IMG/VR virus record: IMGVR_UViG_3300027151_000002
Span: 42,735 to 106,734 of that record
Reading direction: 5' to 3' (one strand)
DNA from: a virus
Length of the DNA stretch: 64,000 bases
The notes beneath the pieces were generated by a model. It searched no databases and had not been told where the DNA came from. It was given only the letters and a program-made list of their open reading frames with translations. The position numbers and the translations under genes were made by a program. Positions 27,368-55,463 of this stretch are shown piece by piece (position 1 is the stretch's first letter; each line of letters opens with the position of its first letter).

Positions 27368-27543
27368 TCCATTGTTGGATTGGGATTATGACAAACGAAG
27401 CGTGATGCAACTTGCTACGGCAAAGCTTGAACGTAGGCTTCAATACTGGCGAGAGAAAGAGCAGGAGGAAATCCTGAAGCGATATCGTCTCGTCACTTCC
27501 ATCTAGCCAAATTGCCAATTTCTACACACTACGAGGTTCAACA

Positions 27544-27753
27544 ATGACTCAAGAACATCCCATCACCCCAATGAGCGACTTCCACCCCGCACCATTCGAT
27601 GACTTTTCCACCGAACTGCGCGATCCGTGGCCCGTTGTGGAGCGGCTACGCATGGCACTGCGCGAGGCCGAGCGCTACTGCCTCGGCGCTGAAAACACCA
27701 CCGGGCAGTGCATCACATCCCTTCTTGAAATTCTTCCTGACGAAGATGACTGA
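27544..27753 (+). CDS. Hypothetical protein at the genome junction
   Basis: GAGG RBS, MTQEHPITP...; GC content rises here. Confidence 0.5.
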   Translation: MTQEHPITPMSDFHPAPFDDFSTELRDPWPVVERLRMALREAERYCLGAENTTGQCITSLLEILPDEDD

Positions 27754-28006
27754 CTTCCGAGCGCTGTGCGCCCGCATGGCTGACGAGCTGGACCATTACC
27801 GGCAGCTTTTGATGGATGACCGACGCGAAGCACATGCGTTGGCGACAGAAGCCCGCGCCGCACTTGCTCAGCCCAAGCCGCCGAGCTTGAGGGAGCAGGC
27901 GCTAGATGCCCTCACCCTTCTATGCAAAGGGCCGGACGCAACAGCTTTTGTGACGTGTAGAGACACCATCCGCCGTGCTCTCGAACAGCTTCCCGACAAC
28001 GAGTAG
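27746..28006 (+). CDS. Hypothetical modular protein
   Basis: MTDFRALCAR...PPSLREQAL...TIRRALEQLPD; its TAG stop is part of a TAG-N9-CTA site. Confidence 0.55.
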   Translation: MTDFRALCARMADELDHYRQLLMDDRREAHALATEARAALAQPKPPSLREQALDALTLLCKGPDATAFVTCRDTIRRALEQLPDNE

Positions 28007-28222
28007 TCACCTTCACTAATTACGCCAACCCATGCCCACCAAGCTCAAAGCCAGCACCCTCCCCGTCAACCTCACCGCCTACCAGCGCGCCATCGACGCC
28101 GCCGCTCGCACCGTTTCCGGTATCCCGCGCTGCCAGCTAGAGGCCATCGTCGCCGCTGCCATCACCGCCATTGGCAAACCAACAGATGACAACCAAGCGG
28201 CCTGAAAACCAACCCTGTCGCC

Positions 28223-30341: not shown

Positions 30342-30664
30342 TGGCAGCCCGCGATTCCTACCAAGGTCAAGCTATCGAGCGGGCACGCCGCTTCGCTCGC
30401 ATAATCGCCAATGGCGGCCGTAGGTCGGACTGCCTGCGCTATGCCGAAGAAAACTGGGGGGTCAAGGCAAGCTCCTGCGATCAATACCTCCGCATGGCCC
30501 GCGATCAGCTCAAGGCTGACTGGGACATCGAACGGCCCCAGATGATCGCTGACCTGCTCTCTCAGTGCTCCACCCTTCAGATGGAAGCCCGCCGCGCTGG
30601 GCAGTACCACATCGCTCTAGGTGCCATTAACACCGCAGCCAAGCTCGCTCAGCTCTGCTCGTGA
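30341..30664 (+). CDS. Terminase small subunit (probable)
   Basis: 107 aa helical/HTH-like protein coupled to terL. Confidence 0.6.
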   Translation: MAARDSYQGQAIERARRFARIIANGGRRSDCLRYAEENWGVKASSCDQYLRMARDQLKADWDIERPQMIADLLSQCSTLQMEARRAGQYHIALGAINTAAKLAQLCS

Positions 30665-32010
30665 GCATCCTTGCTGCTGCACCAACAGGCAACGTCCTTC
30701 AGCAGATCGGTCATGGCAACGGCGACCTTGATGTAGCCAACCTCCTCGCTCGCATCACAGCGGACCTGCACCCCGGTCAGCTCGCCTTTGTCGAAGACCA
30801 GACAACCGAGATCCTTGGCATTTCTGCCGGATACGGCGCTGGTAAAACCCGTGCACTAGCCAGCAAGGCCGTTCACCTCGCCGCCAGCAATCAGGGCTTC
30901 ATCGGCATCGTCATGGAGCCCACCGGCCCATTGATCCGTGACATCTGGCAGAACGACTTCGACGACTTCCTAGAGGCCTACGACATCCCCTACACGTTCC
31001 GCGCTTCACCGCTCCCGGAATACGTGCTGCACCTGCCCGGCGGCGACACCAAGATCCTCTGCCGCAGCTTTGAAAACTGGCAGCGCTGCATCGGCATCAA
31101 CGCCGCATGGTGCCTCTGCGATGAAATTGATACTGTCCCACCCTCCACGGCCAACAAGGCCTTCCCCAAGATCCTTGGCCGCCTTCGTGCCGGCAACGTT
31201 CGGCAGTTCGGTGCAGCCTCCACACCTGAAGGCTTCCGCTGGATGTGGCAAACCTTCGCCTCAGAAGAGACCAAGGAACGCGCTGATCGCAAGCTGATCA
31301 AGATGCGCACGGCAGACAACCCCTATCTGCCGCCTGACTTCATTGAGCGTCTACAGGCCAACTACGACCCGAACCTGCTGCAGGCCTACCTCAACGGTGA
31401 GTTTGTCTCGCTCACCACCGGCCAGGTGTACGACCGCTTCAACCGTGAGCTGCACGTTCAGACGGTTGACTGGGATCCAGAAGAGCCGATCCTGCTCGGC
31501 ATTGACTTCAATATTGGCAACATGAGTGGCGTCTTAGCCGTGCGCCGTGGCCGTGAGCTGCACGTCTTTGATGAGATTACCGGTGCCCACGACACCGATG
31601 CCCTCGCTCAAGAGGCTCGCCGCCGTTACGGCAAAGCACGCATCCTTGGCTACCCCGATGCTTCCGGTGCCAACCGCAGCACCAATAGCTCCCGCAGCGA
31701 CATCGCCATCCTGGAGAGCTACGACATCAGCAACATGGCACCCTCAGCCAACCCACCGGTGCGCGACAGGATCGCAGCGGTGCAAGCGTTGCTGGAGAAC
31801 GGCATGGCCGAGCGCCGTCTGTTCGTCGATAAGCGCTGCAAGAAGCTGATCGAGTGCCTAGAGCTGCAGAGCTACACAGAGCAAGGTGATCCAGACAAGA
31901 GCGCCGGCTATGACCACATGAATGATGCGCTCGGCTACATCGTCCACCGCTGCTTTGAAGTGGGCCGTGGCCACAGCGGTAAAGCAGTGCGCAATCTGCG
32001 CATCTACTGA
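30661..32010 (+). CDS. terL: Terminase large subunit
   Basis: Walker A AGYGAGKT, Walker B LCDE, STPEG, nuclease GIDFN...DHMNDALGY. Confidence 0.92.
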   Translation: MSILAAAPTGNVLQQIGHGNGDLDVANLLARITADLHPGQLAFVEDQTTEILGISAGYGAGKTRALASKAVHLAASNQGFIGIVMEPTGPLIRDIWQNDFDDFLEAYDIPYTFRASPLPEYVLHLPGGDTKILCRSFENWQRCIGINAAWCLCDEIDTVPPSTANKAFPKILGRLRAGNVRQFGAASTPEGFRWMWQTFASEETKERADRKLIKMRTADNPYLPPDFIERLQANYDPNLLQAYLNGEFVSLTTGQVYDRFNRELHVQTVDWDPEEPILLGIDFNIGNMSGVLAVRRGRELHVFDEITGAHDTDALAQEARRRYGKARILGYPDASGANRSTNSSRSDIAILESYDISNMAPSANPPVRDRIAAVQALLENGMAERRLFVDKRCKKLIECLELQSYTEQGDPDKSAGYDHMNDALGYIVHRCFEVGRGHSGKAVRNLRIY

Positions 32011-32033
32011 TCGGAAACCTAGAAAAAAGGGCT

Positions 32034-33503
32034 GTGCACTTCAATCTCGCTGCCACTGAACTCAAGCCCGTCCTGTCCATTCAGGATCTCGGCGTTCACG
32101 ATCCCGGCATCGCCTGGCAGCGGATGCAGCCCCGCTGGGAACTCATCGAAGAGCTGATCGGTGGCACGCTGCAGCTGCAAGCCGCAGGCCGTCGCTACCT
32201 GCCGCAGGAGCCGAAGGAATCCGACGAGAGCTATCTCGCCCGCCTGCGCCGCAGCGTCTGCCCGCCGTACTACCAGCGCTTAGAGCAGATGCTGGCCGGC
32301 ATGATCAGCCGCAAGCCAGTCCGTCTGGACAACGTGCCTGATCAGGTGCAAGAGCACATGATGGACGTCGATCTGCAGGGCAACGATCTCAACGTCTACC
32401 TGCACAGCCTGGCCCGCACCTGTCTGCGCTACGGGCACGTCGGCGTGCTGGTGGACTTCCCTCGCGGTGATGAAGGCGACGACACACCGGTTACTGACTT
32501 CAACCGTCCCTACTGGGTGAGCTACAGCCCACGGGACATCCTTGGCTGGCGAACTGACGTAGTGGGCGGCACGCAAAAGCTCACGCAGCTGCGCCTGCTA
32601 GAGCGCGTCGTCGTGCCTTACTCGGAATACGGCGAAGAGGTGGTGGAGCAGGTGCGGGTGCTGACGCCCGGTGCGTTCCAGCTGTTCCGCAAGCAGGCCT
32701 CCCGCTCCCGTGATTGGGAACTGGTCAGCGAAGGCCAGACCACGCTCGACGAGATCCCCTTTGCGGTTGCCTACTCCAACCGCGTGGGCATCCTGGAATC
32801 CACCCCGCCGCTGGAAGAGGTCGCACACCTCAACCTGCAGAGCTACCGCGTCAGCTCAGACCTCAGCAATCAGCTGCACATCGCTGCTGTGCCTCGCTTC
32901 CATCTGTACGGCGTGCCAGCCGAACTAGATGAGATCACTGCTGGCCCTGACTCCGCCATGGCTCTACCCGTGGATTCACGGGCTGAGTTTGTGGAGCCGC
33001 AAGGCACCAGCTACGGCTTCCAGTTCCAGCAGCTGGATCGCATTGAACGCCAGATCAATCAACTTGGCCTGGCCGCTGTGATGGGTCAAAACATGACCAA
33101 CCAAGCGGCAGAAGCCAAGGCCATTGACCGCAGCCAAGGTGATGCTGCCCTGATGACCGTGGCGCTTGGCCTGCAGGATCTGATCGACAACTGCCTGCGC
33201 TTCCACAGTGCGTTCCTCGGTCTGCCCAACAGCGGCAGCAGCATGGTCAACAACGACTTCGTGGCCCGCACGCTGGAGCCTGGTCATGTAGCCGAGCTGA
33301 TCAAGCTGCGCCTCAACGGTGACATCACGCAGGAAACCCTGCTGATCCAGCTAGCCGATGGTGAGTGGCTCTACGACGACTTCAATGTCGATCAGGAGAT
33401 TGAAGCCACCGCAGCGCAACAGCAATCACGGCTTGATGCACAAGCTGCGCAGCTTGATGCAAATCTGCAACAACTTCCGGGGCAACCTAATCAGCAACCC
33501 TGA
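32034..33503 (+). CDS. Portal protein (DUF4055-type)
   Basis: YLPQEPKE...Y..RL, DVDLQG, YGHVGVLVD; follows terL. Confidence 0.85.
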   Translation: MHFNLAATELKPVLSIQDLGVHDPGIAWQRMQPRWELIEELIGGTLQLQAAGRRYLPQEPKESDESYLARLRRSVCPPYYQRLEQMLAGMISRKPVRLDNVPDQVQEHMMDVDLQGNDLNVYLHSLARTCLRYGHVGVLVDFPRGDEGDDTPVTDFNRPYWVSYSPRDILGWRTDVVGGTQKLTQLRLLERVVVPYSEYGEEVVEQVRVLTPGAFQLFRKQASRSRDWELVSEGQTTLDEIPFAVAYSNRVGILESTPPLEEVAHLNLQSYRVSSDLSNQLHIAAVPRFHLYGVPAELDEITAGPDSAMALPVDSRAEFVEPQGTSYGFQFQQLDRIERQINQLGLAAVMGQNMTNQAAEAKAIDRSQGDAALMTVALGLQDLIDNCLRFHSAFLGLPNSGSSMVNNDFVARTLEPGHVAELIKLRLNGDITQETLLIQLADGEWLYDDFNVDQEIEATAAQQQSRLDAQAAQLDANLQQLPGQPNQQP

Positions 33504-33517
33504 GCCTGTGGCTCTAC

Positions 33518-34201
33518 ATGCCCGACAACGACACCGCTCCTGTGGAGCAGTCTGCAAACAACGCTGATCTGCAAGCCCTGCAAGCAGAACTCGATGCCAT
33601 GCGCCGCAAGAATGCGGAGCTGCTGGACGAGAAGAAGAAGCTGGCCAAGAAGCTGCCTGAAGTGCCCGATGGCGTTGATGTCCAGGAACTGCTGGACTTC
33701 AAGCGCAAGGTGGAGCAGCAGCAGCTGGAATCCAAAGGCAAGTACGACGAAGCGCTTAAGACCTACGAGCAGCAGTACCGCGAGCGTGAATCGCAGCTGC
33801 AGGCTCGTGTCGCTGAGCTAGAGGCCGAAAACCGTGAACTCAAGGTGATCGGTCCTGCCGTCGCTGCCCTGGCCGACACCGTGCACGATCCAGATGAGGT
33901 GATCAGGTTGCGGCTCAAGCCCGATCAGATTGAGCGCGAAGCAGACGGCAGCGTGGTCGTTGTCGATGGCTACCAGCGCACACCAATCAGCGACTGGGCA
34001 CGCACCAGCCTGCCGCAGTACCGCCTCAAGGCACCAAAGCCCGCCGGCACCGGCGCACCGGTTGGCCGTAGCACCGCTGAACTACCTGCCGGCAGCAAAA
34101 ACCCCTTCTCGCGTGAGCACTACAACCTCACCGAACAAGCACGGATCTACAAAACAGATCCTGAACTCTATGCACGCTTAAAAGCTGCAGCTAGTAAGTA
34201 A
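33518..34201 (+). CDS. Capsid scaffold protein
   Basis: Coiled coil, NPF...NLTEQ C-terminus; lies between portal and capsid. Confidence 0.8.
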   Translation: MPDNDTAPVEQSANNADLQALQAELDAMRRKNAELLDEKKKLAKKLPEVPDGVDVQELLDFKRKVEQQQLESKGKYDEALKTYEQQYRERESQLQARVAELEAENRELKVIGPAVAALADTVHDPDEVIRLRLKPDQIEREADGSVVVVDGYQRTPISDWARTSLPQYRLKAPKPAGTGAPVGRSTAELPAGSKNPFSREHYNLTEQARIYKTDPELYARLKAAASK

Positions 34202-34296
34202 ACGCTTCTGGCATACTTACAAGCAAGAGGGAAGGCTGTGCTGACCCATTGGCCTGTGGCCGCACCACAAACCCACTCTCTTTAGGAGCTTGAACC

Positions 34297-35352
34297 ATGG
34301 CGGCAACAGTCCGCTCGGATATTGTCATCCCGGAGATTTTTACTCCGTATCTGGAAGAGGCCACCACTCTTCGCAATGCCTTTATCGCTTCCGGTGTTGT
34401 GCAGCCCCTTGAGGCTCTCAACGCTGTGGCCGATGGCGGCGACTACGTGAATGTGCCCTTTTTCGATGCCAACCTCAGCGGCGACGCTGAAGTGCTGGCT
34501 GATAACGCCAGTCTGACCCCTGGCAACATCACCGCCGACAAGCAGCGCGGTGTGGTGCTGCACCGTGGTCGCGCTTGGGGTGTGCGTGAGCTGGCCAAGC
34601 TGGCTGCTGGTGCTGACCCCATGGCCGCCATCGGCAACAAGGTCGCTGCCTACATCGCTCACCAACAGCAGAAGGATCTGCTGGCCACCCTCGCTGGTGT
34701 GTTTGGTGCAGTCGGTAGCAGCAACAGCTCGGCATCCTTTGTCGATCTGACCTTTGATGCCGGCGGTTCTGGTGAGACCCCTCTCACCCCTCGTCACGTC
34801 GCCAAGGCTCGTGCACTGCTGGGTGATCAAGGCGACAAGCTGAGCGCTATCTGCATGCACTCGGCTGTCTACTACGACCTCGTAGAGCGTCGTGCCATTG
34901 ACTACGTGACCGCCTCTGAAGCTCGCGCTACCGCTGCTGCTTCTAACGCTGCTACCCCCGATGTGTTCGCTGGCTCTGTGGCTGGCGCATATACCGCTGA
35001 CGGCAGCGTGCCCTTTTACATGGGCATGCGCGTGATCGTCTCCGACGATGTGCAGACCAGCGGCTCTGGCTCCTCGAAGAAATATGCAACTTATTTCTTC
35101 ACTCCGGGGGCAGTCGGATCGGGCGAAGCCCAGGGCATCAAAACCGAAGTGGACCGCGACATCCTCGCGCTGGCCGACTACATGGCCGTGTCCTGGCACA
35201 ACGTGTTCCACCCCATTGGTGCTCAGTACCAGACCGCCGGCGGTGCTAACCCCTCACAGGCAACTCTGGCCACTGTTGCCAACTGGACCAAGGTGTACGA
35301 GACCAAGAACATTGGCATCGTGCGCGGCACTGTCACCAGCAACTTCGACTGA
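34297..35352 (+). CDS. Major capsid protein
   Basis: DIVIPEIFTPY, GGDYVNVPFF, DPMAAIG, NWTKVY. Confidence 0.88.
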   Translation: MAATVRSDIVIPEIFTPYLEEATTLRNAFIASGVVQPLEALNAVADGGDYVNVPFFDANLSGDAEVLADNASLTPGNITADKQRGVVLHRGRAWGVRELAKLAAGADPMAAIGNKVAAYIAHQQQKDLLATLAGVFGAVGSSNSSASFVDLTFDAGGSGETPLTPRHVAKARALLGDQGDKLSAICMHSAVYYDLVERRAIDYVTASEARATAAASNAATPDVFAGSVAGAYTADGSVPFYMGMRVIVSDDVQTSGSGSSKKYATYFFTPGAVGSGEAQGIKTEVDRDILALADYMAVSWHNVFHPIGAQYQTAGGANPSQATLATVANWTKVYETKNIGIVRGTVTSNFD

Positions 35353-35363
35353 GGTTGATCTTC

Positions 35364-35522
35364 ATGGGACTGACCGGGTTCAACCTGGCTCGTCGTGAAG
35401 AAGAAGAGGCTGCTGCTTCGGCAGTGGCCTCTGTTTCTACAGAGTCAGAAGTCTGCTCCATGCCTGAGCAGAAAGAAGCCCCCAAGCGCGGGCGCAAGAA
35501 GGCTGAGTCTGTCGAAGACTGA
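35364..35522 (+). CDS. Small protein after capsid (52 aa)
   Basis: GAGG RBS; MGLTGFNLARRE...PKRGRKK. Confidence 0.5.
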   Translation: MGLTGFNLARREEEEAAASAVASVSTESEVCSMPEQKEAPKRGRKKAESVED

Positions 35523-35659
35523 TGGCGGTCAAAGCTAAGGCGGGTGTTACTGCCCGCCTTTTTGGCAAGGGCAAACCCAAAAAGACCCGGCAAGGGTATG
35601 GCCAGCACAGCCGGCCAAACCACGGGCGCAAAAAGCTAAGAGGACAAGGGCGTGGCTGA
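35522..35659 (+). CDS. Small basic peptide (45 aa, absent from ORF track)
   Basis: MAVKAKAGVTARLFGKGKPKKTRQGYGQHSRPNHGRKKLRGQGRG; homologue at 8333. Confidence 0.7.
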   Translation: MAVKAKAGVTARLFGKGKPKKTRQGYGQHSRPNHGRKKLRGQGRG

Positions 35660-36696: not shown

Positions 36697-37254
36697 ATGA
36701 CCGTCACTGTCGTTGCTACTGCTGGCGCTGCTGATGCCAACAGCTATCTGACAGTGGCTGCTGCAGATGATTTGGCCAACCTGTACCTCGGCACTCTCAA
36801 CTGGTCATCGGCCAGCACCGATAACAAAGGCCGTGCGCTGATCATGGCCACGCGCTACCTCGATGAGCTGAGCTACATCGGTGAGCGTGCTGCCAGCACA
36901 CAAGCGCTGCTCTGGCCCCGCACGGACGCCGAGTGTGGCGACTGGTCTTACAGCAGCACCGAGATCCCCAAGCCGATCAAGCAGGCCACCTTTGACCTGG
37001 CCGAATACCTGCTCGGTGATGGCAATGCCCTGTCAACTGGCGGTGCCGGCAGTAGCGAACTGATCAGCGGCATCCCCAACGCCAACCTCAAGCGTGCCCA
37101 GATTGATGTGATCAGCGTGGAGTTCAATTCCACCCCACAGGCCGAAAGCAAGAACGCTTTGAATGTGCTTCCGCACTTGTCTAAAGTGTTGGGATGCTTA
37201 TGCACCAGCACCGCAGCATCAGCCTTCGGGTCGCGCCTCGTCCTGCGAAGTTAG
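36697..37254 (+). CDS. Head-tail adaptor (DnaT-like family)
   Basis: ANSYLTV...ALIMATRYLD...QALLWPR...IPKPIKQAT. Confidence 0.75.
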   Translation: MTVTVVATAGAADANSYLTVAAADDLANLYLGTLNWSSASTDNKGRALIMATRYLDELSYIGERAASTQALLWPRTDAECGDWSYSSTEIPKPIKQATFDLAEYLLGDGNALSTGGAGSSELISGIPNANLKRAQIDVISVEFNSTPQAESKNALNVLPHLSKVLGCLCTSTAASAFGSRLVLRS

Positions 37255-37259
37255 ACAAG

Positions 37260-37838
37260 ATGCGCGTTGCTGAAGGCCAGCTTGATTTCTTCAGCACTCC
37301 GGCCGCTGCACCGGAGAAAAAGCGCAGCGAAGGACACCTTGCTAAACCACTGACCCGCGAGGAACAGCGGCGGTTTGGGCGCATGTATGCCGAAAACATC
37401 GGCCTGATCAAGATGTTCGGCGGGAAGCTGTGCCGCAAGTACAGCCACTGCATGGCCAAGGAGGATATCTTCTCCTGCTGTGACATTGCCTTCTTGAAGG
37501 CGTGCCGTGCTTGGGATCCCGAGAAGGGAAAGCTGAGCACGATCTTCTGGAGCTTTGCCCAAGGTGAAGTGCTGCACTTTTTGCGGGGCCACAACTGGAC
37601 GATCAAGGCCACGCACAAGGTCAGGCTGCTGGGCAACAACGCCAGGCGGCTGATGGCGTTGGGCTGGCAGCCGGCAGCGATCTGCAAGGAGCTGAGCTGC
37701 AGCAAGCAAGACCTCAAGGAAGCACTGCTAGCGACAGCAGGCGTGGCCCATGACGTGAAGGGCTTTGACCTACATGTATGCCCGCGCATGACGCCGTGGG
37801 AGGTACTTGAGGCCGAAGAGGAGGCTGCTGCTAGTTAG
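37260..37838 (+). CDS. Short sigma70-family factor (region 2 plus HTH)
   Basis: NIGLI...EDI...AFLKACRAWDPEKGKLST. Confidence 0.7.
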   Translation: MRVAEGQLDFFSTPAAAPEKKRSEGHLAKPLTREEQRRFGRMYAENIGLIKMFGGKLCRKYSHCMAKEDIFSCCDIAFLKACRAWDPEKGKLSTIFWSFAQGEVLHFLRGHNWTIKATHKVRLLGNNARRLMALGWQPAAICKELSCSKQDLKEALLATAGVAHDVKGFDLHVCPRMTPWEVLEAEEEAAAS

Positions 37839-52064: not shown

Positions 52065-52139
52065 GTGGTGGTGTTCCCGCTCTGCTTCGGCATCGGGCTG
52101 CTTAGCCCAGCTTCGGCTGGGCTTTGCTGTATCCATTAC
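52065..52139 (+). ncRNA. Candidate structured RNA (three-way junction, two UUCG loops)
   Basis: GTGGTGG/CCATTAC closing stem; TGC-TTCG-GCA and AGCCCAGC-TTCG-GCTGGGCT hairpins. Confidence 0.4.
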
Positions 52140-54385: not shown

Positions 54386-54607
54386 ATGGCATGGGGTGAT
54401 TGGATGGTGCCCCAACCGGGGCCAGAGCACCTCCTCACCCTTGAGCGTCAGAAACGTGCGGTCGAAAGTTACGACCTGCCGCAGGCGCAAGAGATGTTGA
54501 TCAAACTCTGTCAGCTCTCCTTGCATCAAGACCTGATCATTCGCGGCGCTACGCGGCGGATCGCAGAGCTTGAATGCAATCTTGCCCTTGCAGACCGCCA
54601 AGCTTAA
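54386..54607 (+). CDS. NblA-like protein (putative phycobilisome degradation adaptor)
   Basis: 73 aa; E...V...QAQEMLIKL...Q register matches NblA (QAKxxLVKL). Confidence 0.5.
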   Translation: MAWGDWMVPQPGPEHLLTLERQKRAVESYDLPQAQEMLIKLCQLSLHQDLIIRGATRRIAELECNLALADRQA

Positions 54608-55463
54608 GCCGCAGGCTGTTCATGGCACGGTTGTGCATCTGCTGCGTGGCCTGACGGCTGATCTTCAGGTCTTCGCCGATCTCGATGTAGGAAGTTGGGT
54701 GACGGCTGCTATAGAAGTAGCGCCGCTGGATGATGTGCTGATTCTCTGGGGTCAGATCAGCAATGGCCTCGTGCAGCGCTTTGACATATTCGGTCAGATC
54801 ATCGGGCTGCGGCTCAACGCTGCGCGGATCAGCGACGACTTCCGAGAAGTTGCCGTAGTTGTCACCGCCTGGCATCTGCTGATCCAGGCTGCAGACACCA
54901 GCGTTGTGGTTCAGGTAGCCCAGCAGCGTTTGCTTTTGAATGCCGCAGTAGTCGGCCACCTCTTGCAGTGCTGGCATCTTGCCATGCTCATGCAGGTGCT
55001 TCTGCATAAAGTCCATGGCTTTGCGGATCTCATCGTTGGCCTGCATTGGCAGACGGATGATGCGGCTGTTGCGATTGATCGCTCGCGTAATCCCTTGGCG
55101 AATCCACCAGTAGGAATAAGTGCTGAACTTGTAGCCAAGGCCAGGGTCAAACTTCAGGATGCCTGAATCCATCCCAACAAGACCCTCTTGGATCAGGTCT
55201 TCAAGCGTCAGCGTGCCGCCATACCTCTTGTATTTGCCGGCGACATTGACCGCCAAGCGGATGTTGGAGAGAAAGAAGCGATCACGAGCGCGGCGCCCTT
55301 TGTTGATGATGCCCTGCTGCTGTTTCGTCGGCTTCTCAACGTTTTTGATCGCCATCCAGGCCTGCACTTGACGGGCCAAGACGATCTCTTCGGCGGGTGT
55401 CAGCAGCGGATAGCGGCGCGAGTGCTGAATGATCCAATCAACGGAAGTGCCAGGCGTAGCCAT
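54549..55463 (-). CDS. RpoD-like (group 2-type) RNA polymerase sigma factor
   Basis: PLLTPAEE, NIRLAVNVA, DLIQEG, KFDPGLGYKFSTYSYWWIRQGITRAI, region 4 HTH. Confidence 0.9.
   Translation of the reverse strand: MATPGTSVDWIIQHSRRYPLLTPAEEIVLARQVQAWMAIKNVEKPTKQQQGIINKGRRARDRFFLSNIRLAVNVAGKYKRYGGTLTLEDLIQEGLVGMDSGILKFDPGLGYKFSTYSYWWIRQGITRAINRNSRIIRLPMQANDEIRKAMDFMQKHLHEHGKMPALQEVADYCGIQKQTLLGYLNHNAGVCSLDQQMPGGDNYGNFSEVVADPRSVEPQPDDLTEYVKALHEAIADLTPENQHIIQRRYFYSSRHPTSYIEIGEDLKISRQATQQMHNRAMNSLRLKLGGLQGQDCIQALRSAA

What the first reader, a model, noticed from the sequence alone, without database searches (positions are those of the whole stretch)
32027..34262. Five CUGUG-loop hairpins at the starts of the portal, scaffold and capsid genes
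Seen: GAGC-CTGTG-GCTC (33502, just before the scaffold ATG), GCTC-CTGTG-GAGC (33536, early scaffold codons), GGC-CTGTG-GCC (34251) and GGGaaGG-CTGTG-CTgaCCC (34229) in the capsid leader, and AAGgG-CTGTG-CaCTT (32027), whose loop holds the portal GTG start. Stems differ while the loop is constant, which is the pattern expected of a protein-binding RNA motif. Known: P22 scaffold represses its own synthesis post-transcriptionally. Inference: a translational circuit balancing portal, scaffold and capsid stoichiometry.
Basis: partly seen in the sequence, partly recalled or inferred. Interest (0 to 1): 0.72.

Follow-up and report, generated by a model that had tools for sequence, protein, structure and literature searches.

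The report
Scaffold and capsid mRNA hairpin operators
Four of the five small hairpins are real, conserved mRNA signals around the scaffold start and in the capsid leader of a marine cyanophage, and their shared loop changes together with two residues of the scaffold protein's first helix, which makes that protein the likely reader.

Summary
All five CTGTG sites are at the stated coordinates. Inside this window they are not more than chance (P about 0.17). About 160 related cyanophage contigs show that four are real.

- **H1** lies 4 nt before the scaffold ATG.
- **H2** covers scaffold codons 7-10.
- **H3 and H4** lie in the capsid leader.
- **The portal-start site** is not conserved.

Each folds as a 4-6 bp stem with a three-base loop. 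Stems change by compensatory pairs. Every genome uses one loop at all its sites, but lineages differ: UGU, CGU, UGC, UAC or GUU. That points to a shared reader that changes with the sites.

Loop base 3 tracks scaffold residue 29 (R/K with U; E/D/T with C). Loop base 2 tracks residue 38 (E with G; K with A). There were no exceptions in 96 rows. In 67 further rows, one capsid-leader hairpin (L323) broke the first rule.

Best reading: the scaffold protein controls its own translation, as known for P22, and also acts on capsid mRNA. Binding is inferred, not shown. No Rfam family matches.

This scan noted constant-loop hairpins before head genes in other phages, with readers unknown.

The parts
33502..33514 (+). 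H1: GAGCC-UGU-GGCUC hairpin between the portal stop (33501-33503) and the scaffold ATG (33518). It occupies the place where a Shine-Dalgarno sequence would be.
   Evidence: Seen in the sequence and in the RNAfold structure. In 23 distinct relatives 97.3% of cells are paired and 4 of 5 pairs show changes on both sides. The covariation score is 0.506 against 0.242 in shuffles (0 of 500 reach it), and slid controls pair at 59% or less.
33536..33548 (+). H2: GCUCC-UGU-GGAGC hairpin inside scaffold codons 7-10 (A P V E).
   Evidence: Kept in most lineages, with the lineage's own loop, even where the encoded peptide differs (APVE, VTPV, EPAA, EAAP). Stem pairs 1-3 are paired in 12 of 12 distinct versions.
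34229..34247 (+). H3: two-tier hairpin in the capsid leader. Outer stem GGG/CCC, an internal loop, then inner GGC-UGU-GCU.
   Evidence: The outer stem is replaced by GGC/GCC, AGAC/GUCU, CUCA/UGAG or CCGGC/GCUGG in other lineages. The inner G-C and C-G pairs are kept.
34250..34262 (+). H4: UGGCC-UGU-GGCCG hairpin in the capsid leader, 35 nt upstream of the capsid ATG.
   Evidence: 100% paired in 35 distinct leaders. Pair 71-77 is CG in 18 and GC in 17; pair 72-76 is CG in 19 and UG in 16. RNAalifold predicts it on its own. Stem positions 1-4 pair in 18 of 18 versions; the next two positions pair in 4 of 18.
34267..34272 (+). ACAAAC: a conserved single-stranded RYAAAC element between H4 and the Shine-Dalgarno AGGAG (34284-34288).
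   Evidence: The A1 alignment has nearly invariant AAA-C columns. Its function is unknown, and it does not co-vary with the loops.
33554..33652 (+). Codons 13-45 of the scaffold gene: predicted helix alpha-1, the candidate reader. It holds E24 (33587-33589), R29 (33602-33604), K31, the invariant N32 (33611-33613) and E38 (33629-33631).
   Evidence: The AF2 model has a helix at 13-45. N32 is invariant in 28 diverse scaffolds. Residues 24, 29, 33 and 38 track the loop type with no exception in 96 distinct rows. The rules were re-tested on 67 further rows.
33518..34201 (+). Scaffolding protein gene (227 aa).
   Evidence: PHROG 206, head scaffolding protein, E 5e-26.
34297..35352 (+). Major capsid protein gene (351 aa).
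   Evidence: PHROG 247, major head protein, E 5e-83.
32027..32041 (+). Portal-start CTGTG site. It is present in the sequence but is not supported as part of the system.
   Evidence: GCUGUGC is kept only in WIN, L004-L006 and L046. Other relatives read CCGTG or CGGTG and have no conserved stem.
33481..33490 (+). GGCAACCTAA junction motif, 12 nt upstream of H1. It may belong to the same leader unit.
   Evidence: There are six exact copies, all on the + strand and all before structural genes. The motif stays with H1 when a 1.8-kb insert separates portal and scaffold.

Best explanation
The four hairpins are mRNA operators read by the phage's own scaffolding protein through its N-terminal helix (residues 13-45, with an invariant K31-N32).

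- **At its own gene:** free scaffold protein, probably as a dimer, would bind the pair H1/H2 that brackets its start codon. That would hold down its own translation, as is known genetically for P22.
- **At the capsid gene:** it would also bind the pair H3/H4 in the capsid 5' leader, which ties capsid output or mRNA stability to the pool of free scaffold.
- **Proposed base reading:** loop base 3 is read by residue 29 (Arg/Lys with U; Glu/Asp/Thr with C). Loop base 2 is read by residue 38 (Glu with G; Lys with A).

**Shown here by computation:** the hairpins are conserved with compensatory changes; the loop is the same at all sites of a genome and has switched many times; the loop type correlates with the helix residues.

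**Inferred:** physical binding, the direction of the effect on capsid, and the dimer-to-two-hairpins geometry.
For: **Structure**
- H1 is 97.3% paired, with 4 of 5 pairs changed on both sides.
- H4 is 100% paired, with a CG/GC flip at one pair (18 against 17).
- Positions just beyond the stems pair only at chance level.
- G-U pairs occur on the sense strand.

**One loop per genome**
- 24 distinct site-sets, then 66, carry a single loop type each: UGU, CGU, UGC, UAC or GUU.
- On the capsid tree the loop label changes 6 times among 42 rows and 17 times among 96 rows.
- L088 and L196 have identical H1 flanks and identical H3 and H4 stems but differ at the loop base in all of them.

**Reader**
- 96 distinct rows show no exception to the residue-to-loop classes.
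- Phylogenetically independent pairs go the same way in 5 of 5 cases for residue 29 and 2 of 2 for residue 38.
- R29 is kept through the synonymous codons AGG, CGG and CGT, so selection acts on the protein.
- L088 has a KBS-like backbone on both sides. Only scaffold residues 1 to about 58 are of the UGU type, yet its H1, H3 and H4 loops are UGU.
- L266 looks like an intermediate whose H1 is still UGC.
- In the second set (67 distinct rows, 43 of them helix-plus-H4 combinations not seen in the first set), the residue 38 rule held in all rows. The residue 29 rule failed only at H4 of L323.

**Position**
- H1 and H2 bracket the AUG, and in the L028 clade H1 pairs the A of AUG.

**Precedent**
Against: - There are no binding or expression data.
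- The helix codons lie only about 60-110 nt from H2, so linkage explains part of the correlation. The argument rests on H1, H3 and H4 following the helix in mosaic genomes.
- The 5-of-5 independent pairs give p = 0.0625, which is the lowest value five pairs can give.
- The E24/R29 to R24/D29 swap is also what a g-e' salt-bridge swap in a coiled coil looks like. It could reflect dimer specificity rather than RNA reading.
- My first rule for CGU (K29) failed on three new CGU genomes, which have R29. An aromatic residue at position 33 is not required for UAC (L309).
- L323 has a UGC-type helix with UGC in H1 and H2 but UGU in H4. L188 has AGC in H3.
- Several lineages lack H1 and H2 altogether: the GUU clade, KBS-S-2A, L185, L245 and others.
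- The scaffold has no recognisable RNA-binding domain.
- H3 and H4 do not cover the Shine-Dalgarno sequence or the AUG, so a simple block of capsid initiation is unlikely.
Confidence: 0.55

Rival explanations
1. The hairpins are operators for a different reader that changes with them: another phage protein encoded elsewhere in the genome, a sequence-specific RNase, or a small RNA. On this view the scaffold helix correlation is hitch-hiking.
For: The single loop per genome requires some shared reader. Most contigs are short, so the rest of the genome is unseen for the key mosaics L088, L196, L266 and L323. The scaffold has no known RNA-binding domain.
Against: In L088 the genes on both sides are KBS-like, and only the scaffold 5' part is of the UGU type. 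The 45-aa basic peptide is 75% identical between the UGU and GUU clades and is not detected in KBS-S-2A. Capsid protein is 92% identical between the UGU and GUU clades, and the loop label changes 17 times on its tree. I found no complementary small-RNA-like partner that co-varies with the loops.
Confidence: 0.25
2. The hairpins are purely structural mRNA elements with no sequence-specific reader. They would act as 5' stabilisers or processing boundaries that raise scaffold and capsid transcript levels, or as tuners of initiation.
For: Scaffold and capsid must be made in far greater amounts than portal. A terminator-like hairpin follows the capsid gene at 35539-35567. H3 and H4 leave the ribosome site open.
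Against: A structural role does not explain why all sites of a genome share the same three loop bases, nor why they switch together, including by single point changes in otherwise identical hairpins.
Confidence: 0.1
3. The sites act on DNA, as promoter or operator elements for the phage sigma factor or for a DNA-binding protein.
For: The phage encodes an RpoD-like sigma at 54549-55463. A GGMAACCTAR motif precedes many late genes.
Against: The arms vary and the centre is constant, which is the reverse of a palindromic DNA operator. G-U pairs exist only on the sense strand. H2 lies inside codons. No consistent -10 element sits at a fixed distance from the GGCAAC motif. No sigma-70-like promoters were found in 28-40 kb.
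Confidence: 0.05
4. The pattern is a chance coincidence of short inverted repeats.
For: Statistics within the window alone are not significant.
Against: The hairpins are conserved with covariation across about 160 distinct relatives.
Confidence: 0.02

Closest known systems
Post-transcriptional autoregulation of the phage P22 scaffolding protein gene (Casjens & Adams 1985; Wyckoff & Casjens 1985)
   Same: A recycled scaffold, with no protease between portal and scaffold, is proposed to hold down its own synthesis after transcription. In P22 the N-terminus of the scaffold is the part implicated.
   Different: There is no sequence similarity to P22 gp8. To my knowledge no RNA operator has been mapped in P22. 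Here the operator candidates are defined, come in pairs, and a second pair sits on the capsid mRNA.
MS2, Qbeta and PP7 coat protein with the replicase operator hairpin
   Same: A structural protein would bind a small hairpin at a translation start. Loop bases set the specificity, stems are free to vary, and related phages have different loop specificities.
   Different: Here the candidate reader is the scaffold and not the capsid protein. The phage has a dsDNA genome. The loop is three bases. There are two hairpins per operator and two operators.
Lambda-family N protein with boxB (nut sites)
   Same: Several hairpins in one genome share a loop, the loop differs between related phages, and the proposed reader is a short basic helix.
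   Different: There is no boxA, no early-transcript position upstream of terminators, and no N-like gene. The sites sit on translation starts and leaders of late genes.
E. coli thrS operator (ThrRS dimer bound to two anticodon-like hairpins)
   Same: Two hairpins with the same loop sit next to a start codon and are read by a homodimer for autogenous translational control.
   Different: The protein is unrelated and there is no tRNA mimicry here.
Constant-loop hairpins before scaffold and capsid genes noted by this scan in other phages (e1-6031582 GUGAU loops; e1-6009409 GGGAY loops; e1-5797648 internal loop)
   Same: The placement and the logic are the same: a constant loop and co-varying stems before head genes.
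   Different: The loops and the phage families differ, and no reader was proposed there. Here protein residues that track the loop are identified.

Membership tests
Rfam RNA families | A match to any curated covariance model | tested here: not met
   cmscan of 27000-64000 at E up to 1 gave only a spurious lncRNA hit at 52103, nowhere near the sites.
Autogenous scaffold control of the P22 type | The regulated element lies in the scaffold mRNA at the translation start | tested here: met
   H1 ends 4 nt before the AUG and H2 covers codons 7-10. In the L028 clade H1 pairs the A of AUG.
Autogenous scaffold control of the P22 type | The scaffold protein itself is the effector, acting through its N-terminal part | tested here: inconclusive
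   Helix residues 29 and 38 track the loop bases and the mosaic genomes fit. This is correlation only.
Autogenous scaffold control of the P22 type | Homology of the scaffold protein to P22 gp8 | tested here: not met
   No P22 scaffold chain appears among the PDB sequence or profile hits.
   Capsid protein is 92% identical between the UGU and GUU clades. The loop label changes 17 times on the capsid tree. No capsid column separates all three of UGU, UGC and UAC from one another.
Lambda N / boxB nut site | A boxA-plus-boxB unit in early transcripts upstream of terminators, with an N-like ARM protein | tested here: not met
   The sites are in the late head module at gene starts. The only basic peptide nearby is absent from lineages that keep the hairpins.
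CsrA/RsmA operators | A GGA motif in the hairpin loop or overlapping the Shine-Dalgarno sequence | tested here: not met
   The loops are UGU, CGU, UGC, UAC or GUU; none has GGA.
Intrinsic terminator | A G+C-rich stem followed by a U tract | tested here: not met
   No T run follows any of the four hairpins, and the terminator scan does not list them.
Palindromic DNA operator or sigma promoter element | Conserved half-sites with a variable centre, or a fixed distance to a -35 element | tested here: not met
   The arms differ between the sites of one genome while the centre is constant. G-U pairs are on the sense strand only. The spacing to GGMAAC is inconsistent.

The most novel reading that the evidence does not exclude
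A phage scaffolding protein is a sequence-specific reader of RNA loops with a simple code that evolution can rewrite. Residue 29 reads loop base 3 and residue 38 reads loop base 2, next to an invariant Lys-Asn. The protein uses paired hairpins on its own mRNA and on the capsid mRNA to keep the scaffold-to-capsid ratio right. Natural specificity switches (UGU, CGU, UGC, UAC, GUU) have happened many times, and intermediates are still visible (L266, L323). The same principle may lie behind the constant-loop hairpins seen before head genes in unrelated phage groups.
Probability: 0.4. Interest if true: 0.85.

Novelty: new variant of a known kind. Interest (0 to 1): 0.74.

Why it matters
P22 scaffold autoregulation was reported in 1985 (references 52 and 53). 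I found no mapped RNA target for it in the papers searched.

This family offers what is needed to test the idea directly:
- Defined 13-nt operator candidates.
- A defined candidate reading helix.
- Natural specificity variants.
- Two cultured phages on Synechococcus WH7803. S-H1 has all four sites, and KBS-S-2A has only the capsid pair.

If the reading is confirmed, three things follow:
- It shows how a dsDNA phage balances its two most abundant head proteins at the RNA level.
- It gives a compact helix-and-triloop recognition pair that could be re-targeted.
- It offers a reader hypothesis for similar hairpins in other phage groups.

Tried and rejected
- **Enrichment within the window.** CTGTG hairpins and UGU triloops are not significantly enriched.
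- **Extra sites elsewhere.** Scans of six related complete or near-complete genomes (G001-G005 and KBS-S-2A) plus the phage part of the window found no further sites.
- **A long-range switch.** In the window's lowest-energy fold, H4 pairs with capsid codons 2-5. Relatives do not keep this pairing.
- **Loop pairing with the downstream RYAAAC element, or loop-loop kissing.** There is no consistent complementarity across lineages.
- **Sigma-70 or ECF-type promoter reading** of GGMAAC plus CTGTG. The spacing is inconsistent.
- **The 45-aa basic peptide (35522-35659) as reader.** It is conserved only in some clades.
- **Capsid protein as reader**.
- **Known domains or solved relatives of the scaffold.** There is no Pfam hit. 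PDB hits are only weak coiled-coil matches, including CREB bZIP at E 0.1.
- **Tree comparison on 42 rows.** The N-terminal, C-terminal and capsid trees need 4, 5 and 6 loop changes. The trend fits but is too weak to decide.
- **The original P22 papers** are not in the library.
Full report
**What the window is.** It is the last 64 kb of a 106,734-base IMG/VR virus record. G+C rises from 44-51% to about 60% near 28 kb. Earlier notes of this scan read that point as a junction of two phage genomes.

The G+C-rich part is a siphovirus related to the cyanophages KBS-S-2A and S-H1, which infect Synechococcus WH7803 (about 65% nucleotide identity). Its head module reads as follows:

| Gene | Coordinates |
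|---|---|
| TerL | 30661-32010 |
| Portal | 32034-33503 |
| Scaffold | 33518-34201 |
| Major capsid | 34297-35352 |

Close relatives lie on contigs binned with Synechococcus and Prochlorococcaceae MAGs.

**The observation.** RNAfold pairs the outer C and G, so the sites near the scaffold start are 5-bp stems with a UGU triloop. I call them:
- H1: 33502-33514
- H2: 33536-33548
- H3: 34229-34247, a two-tier hairpin
- H4: 34250-34262

**Chance inside the window.**
- CTGTG is under-represented, 101 copies against about 190 expected.
- Only four + strand copies have perfect flanking stems of 3 bp or more.
- Other loops are in hairpins just as often.
- The three UGU hairpins of 5 bp or more in the phage part are H1, H2 and H4. 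Even so, the chance that some loop type shows three sites within 750 nt is about 0.17.

Relatives can.

**Conservation and covariation.** I collected about 240 related loci from IMG/VR, GTDB genomes and JGI metagenomes.

- **Capsid leader.** The 70-115-nt leader holds two tandem hairpins followed by RYAAAC and a Shine-Dalgarno sequence in every lineage, apart from a distant clade with a 30-37-nt spacer.
- **H4.** It is paired in 100% of 35 distinct leaders. One pair is CG in 18 and GC in 17, and another is CG in 19 and UG in 16. RNAalifold finds it unaided. In L087 the whole stem is flipped to GCCC/GGGC.
- **H3.** Its outer stem is rebuilt as GGC/GCC, AGAC/GUCU, CUCA/UGAG or CCGGC/GCUGG.
- **H1.** It is 97.3% paired in 23 distinct sequences, and 4 of 5 pairs change on both sides. 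The covariation score is 0.506 against 0.242 in shuffles (0 of 500), and slid controls pair at 59% or less.
- **Internal control.** Positions just outside the stems pair at chance level, for example 4 of 18 for H4.
- **Which strand.** G-U pairs occur on the sense strand only, so the functional form is RNA of the mRNA sense.
- **Portal site.** It is not conserved beyond close kin and L046.

**One loop per genome.** Each genome uses the same triloop at all its sites, and lineages differ:

| Loop | Example lineages |
|---|---|
| UGU | Window clade, L046, L088, L173, L200 |
| CGU | L206, L257, L270 |
| UGC | KBS-S-2A, S-H1, L028 clade, L087, L174 |
| UAC | L025, L040, L136 |
| GUU | L008 clade |

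This holds when the strongest hairpin in each zone is picked without regard to its loop.

- The loop label changes 6 times on a capsid tree of 42 rows and 17 times on one of 96 rows.
- L088 and L196 share identical H1 flanks and identical H3 and H4 stems. They differ only at loop base 3 in each.

Concerted change at sites up to 750 nt apart calls for a common reader whose specificity changes with them.

**Extent of the system.** Scans of six related complete or near-complete genomes, plus the phage part of the window, show no further sites. Some lineages lack H1 and H2: the GUU clade, KBS-S-2A, L185, L245 and others. All lineages that have the long capsid leader keep H3 and H4, so the capsid-leader pair is the core of the system.

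**Who reads the loops.** The scaffold N-terminus is predicted to be one helix, residues 13-45. N32 is invariant and K31 nearly so. Helix residues fall into classes that match the loop:

| Loop | Residue 24 | Residue 29 | Residue 33 | Residue 38 |
|---|---|---|---|---|
| UGU | E | R | not aromatic | E or D |
| UGC | S or R | E, D or T | not aromatic | E |
| UAC | S | E | H, F or Y | K |
| GUU | K | I | Q | Q |

- Across 96 distinct rows there is no exception.
- Independent pairs on the capsid tree go the same way in 5 of 5 cases for residue 29 and 2 of 2 for residue 38. Five pairs cannot give a p-value below 0.0625.
- R29 is held through the synonymous codons AGG, CGG and CGT, so the constraint is on the protein.

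The mosaic genomes are the most telling evidence:
- L088 has KBS-like genes on both sides and a KBS-like scaffold C-terminal part. Only residues 1 to about 58 are of the UGU type, yet its H1, H3 and H4 carry UGU.
- L266 looks like an intermediate with H1 still UGC.

I then tested the rules on 67 further distinct rows from metagenome contigs. Of these, 43 were helix-plus-H4 combinations not seen in the first set:
- The residue 38 rule held in all rows.
- The residue 29 rule failed at one hairpin, H4 of L323, which may be a recent recombinant or a chimeric assembly.
- My provisional rule for loop base 1 (K29 for CGU) was wrong. Three CGU genomes have R29.
- L309 shows that an aromatic residue at position 33 is not needed for UAC.
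- Two other flagged rows (L254, L262) were mis-picks of a hairpin that overlaps H3.

The chemistry is plausible, though this is my inference. A carboxylate can accept hydrogen bonds from the amino group of C or from G. Arg or Lys can donate to the O4 of U.

**Caveats.**
- Nothing here shows binding.
- The helix codons are close to H2, so part of the correlation is linkage.
- The E24/R29 to R24/D29 swap also looks like a coiled-coil g-e' salt-bridge swap.
- The scaffold has no known RNA-binding domain.
- H3 and H4 leave the Shine-Dalgarno sequence and the AUG open. Their effect on capsid could therefore be stabilising, activating or repressing.

**Comparison with what is known.**
- No Rfam family matches, and I found no paper describing these hairpins.
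- The closest precedent is P22 scaffold autoregulation, where the N-terminus is implicated. There is no homology to the P22 scaffold.
- It works like an MS2 coat/operator pair or an N/boxB pair, but it fails the membership tests for both.
- This scan has noted constant-loop hairpins before head genes in other phage families, with readers unknown.

**Verdict.** Four of the five hairpins are real, conserved mRNA elements and the portal site is not. A shared reader that changes with them is strongly indicated. The scaffold's first helix is the best candidate, at about 55%.

Noticed in passing
window 28777, 32013, 33481, 36669, 37840, 45593 (+ strand): The 10-mer GGMAACCTAR occurs six times exactly, always on the + strand and about 10-25 nt upstream of a structural-gene start. 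Several copies are followed by a hairpin that abuts the ATG. A diverged copy, GGCATACTTA-CA-AGCAA, precedes H3 at 34210. Relatives keep the motif with H1 when a 1.8-kb insert separates portal and scaffold. It could be a late promoter, a processing site, or a one-orientation junction signal like mycobacteriophage stoperators.
   Followed up: partly
window about 27500-28100: G+C jumps from about 48% to about 58-60% here. The record therefore looks like two different phage genomes joined, or a chimeric assembly, as earlier notes of this scan also say.
   Followed up: no
window 35355-35659: Two small ORFs follow the capsid gene: one of 55 aa, and a very basic one of 45 aa rich in K and R. Both are conserved as coding sequence in the UGU and GUU clades. 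A terminator-like hairpin with a T run lies inside the second at 35539-35567. Relatives have about 270 nt more between the two ORFs.
   Followed up: partly
L002, L003, L005, L014, L016 between portal and scaffold: An insert of about 1.8 kb separates portal and scaffold in these relatives. The GGCAACCTAA motif and H1 remain attached to the scaffold gene. I did not examine what the insert contains.
   Followed up: no
L049-L063, L069 (capsid about 53% identical): This distant clade has only a 30-37-nt capsid spacer with no H3 or H4. It keeps a strong 7-9-bp hairpin, UUCCUCC-NGU-GGAGGAA, over scaffold codons V-P-P-V-E-E. The first loop base, a synonymous site, varies freely.
   Followed up: partly
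window 54549-55463 (-) and 37194-37838 (+): The first ORF is a clear RpoD-like sigma factor with regions 1.2, 2, 3 and 4. The second has only a sub-threshold Sigma70_r2 hit, 18.2 bits against a cut-off of 24.
   Followed up: partly
L088, L089, L090 (GTDB MAG contigs): Contigs of this phage family are binned into MAGs labelled Dehalococcoidia, Fonsibacter and Cephaloticoccus. This is probably mis-binning and not evidence about the host.
   Followed up: no
L323 and L266 (metagenome contigs): These two genomes have mismatched sites. L323 has a UGC-type helix with UGC in H1 and H2 but UGU in H4. L266 has a UGU-type helix with UGU in H2, H3 and H4 but UGC in H1. They may be recombination intermediates or assembly chimeras.
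   Followed up: partly
scaffold residues 3-54 (profile A4): The profile gives weak hits to the Mpa/ARC coiled coil (E 2e-4) and to the CREB bZIP basic-zipper region (E 0.1). The shared K-N...E...KKK pattern is probably coiled-coil composition, but a basic helix with an invariant Asn is a suggestive parallel.
   Followed up: no
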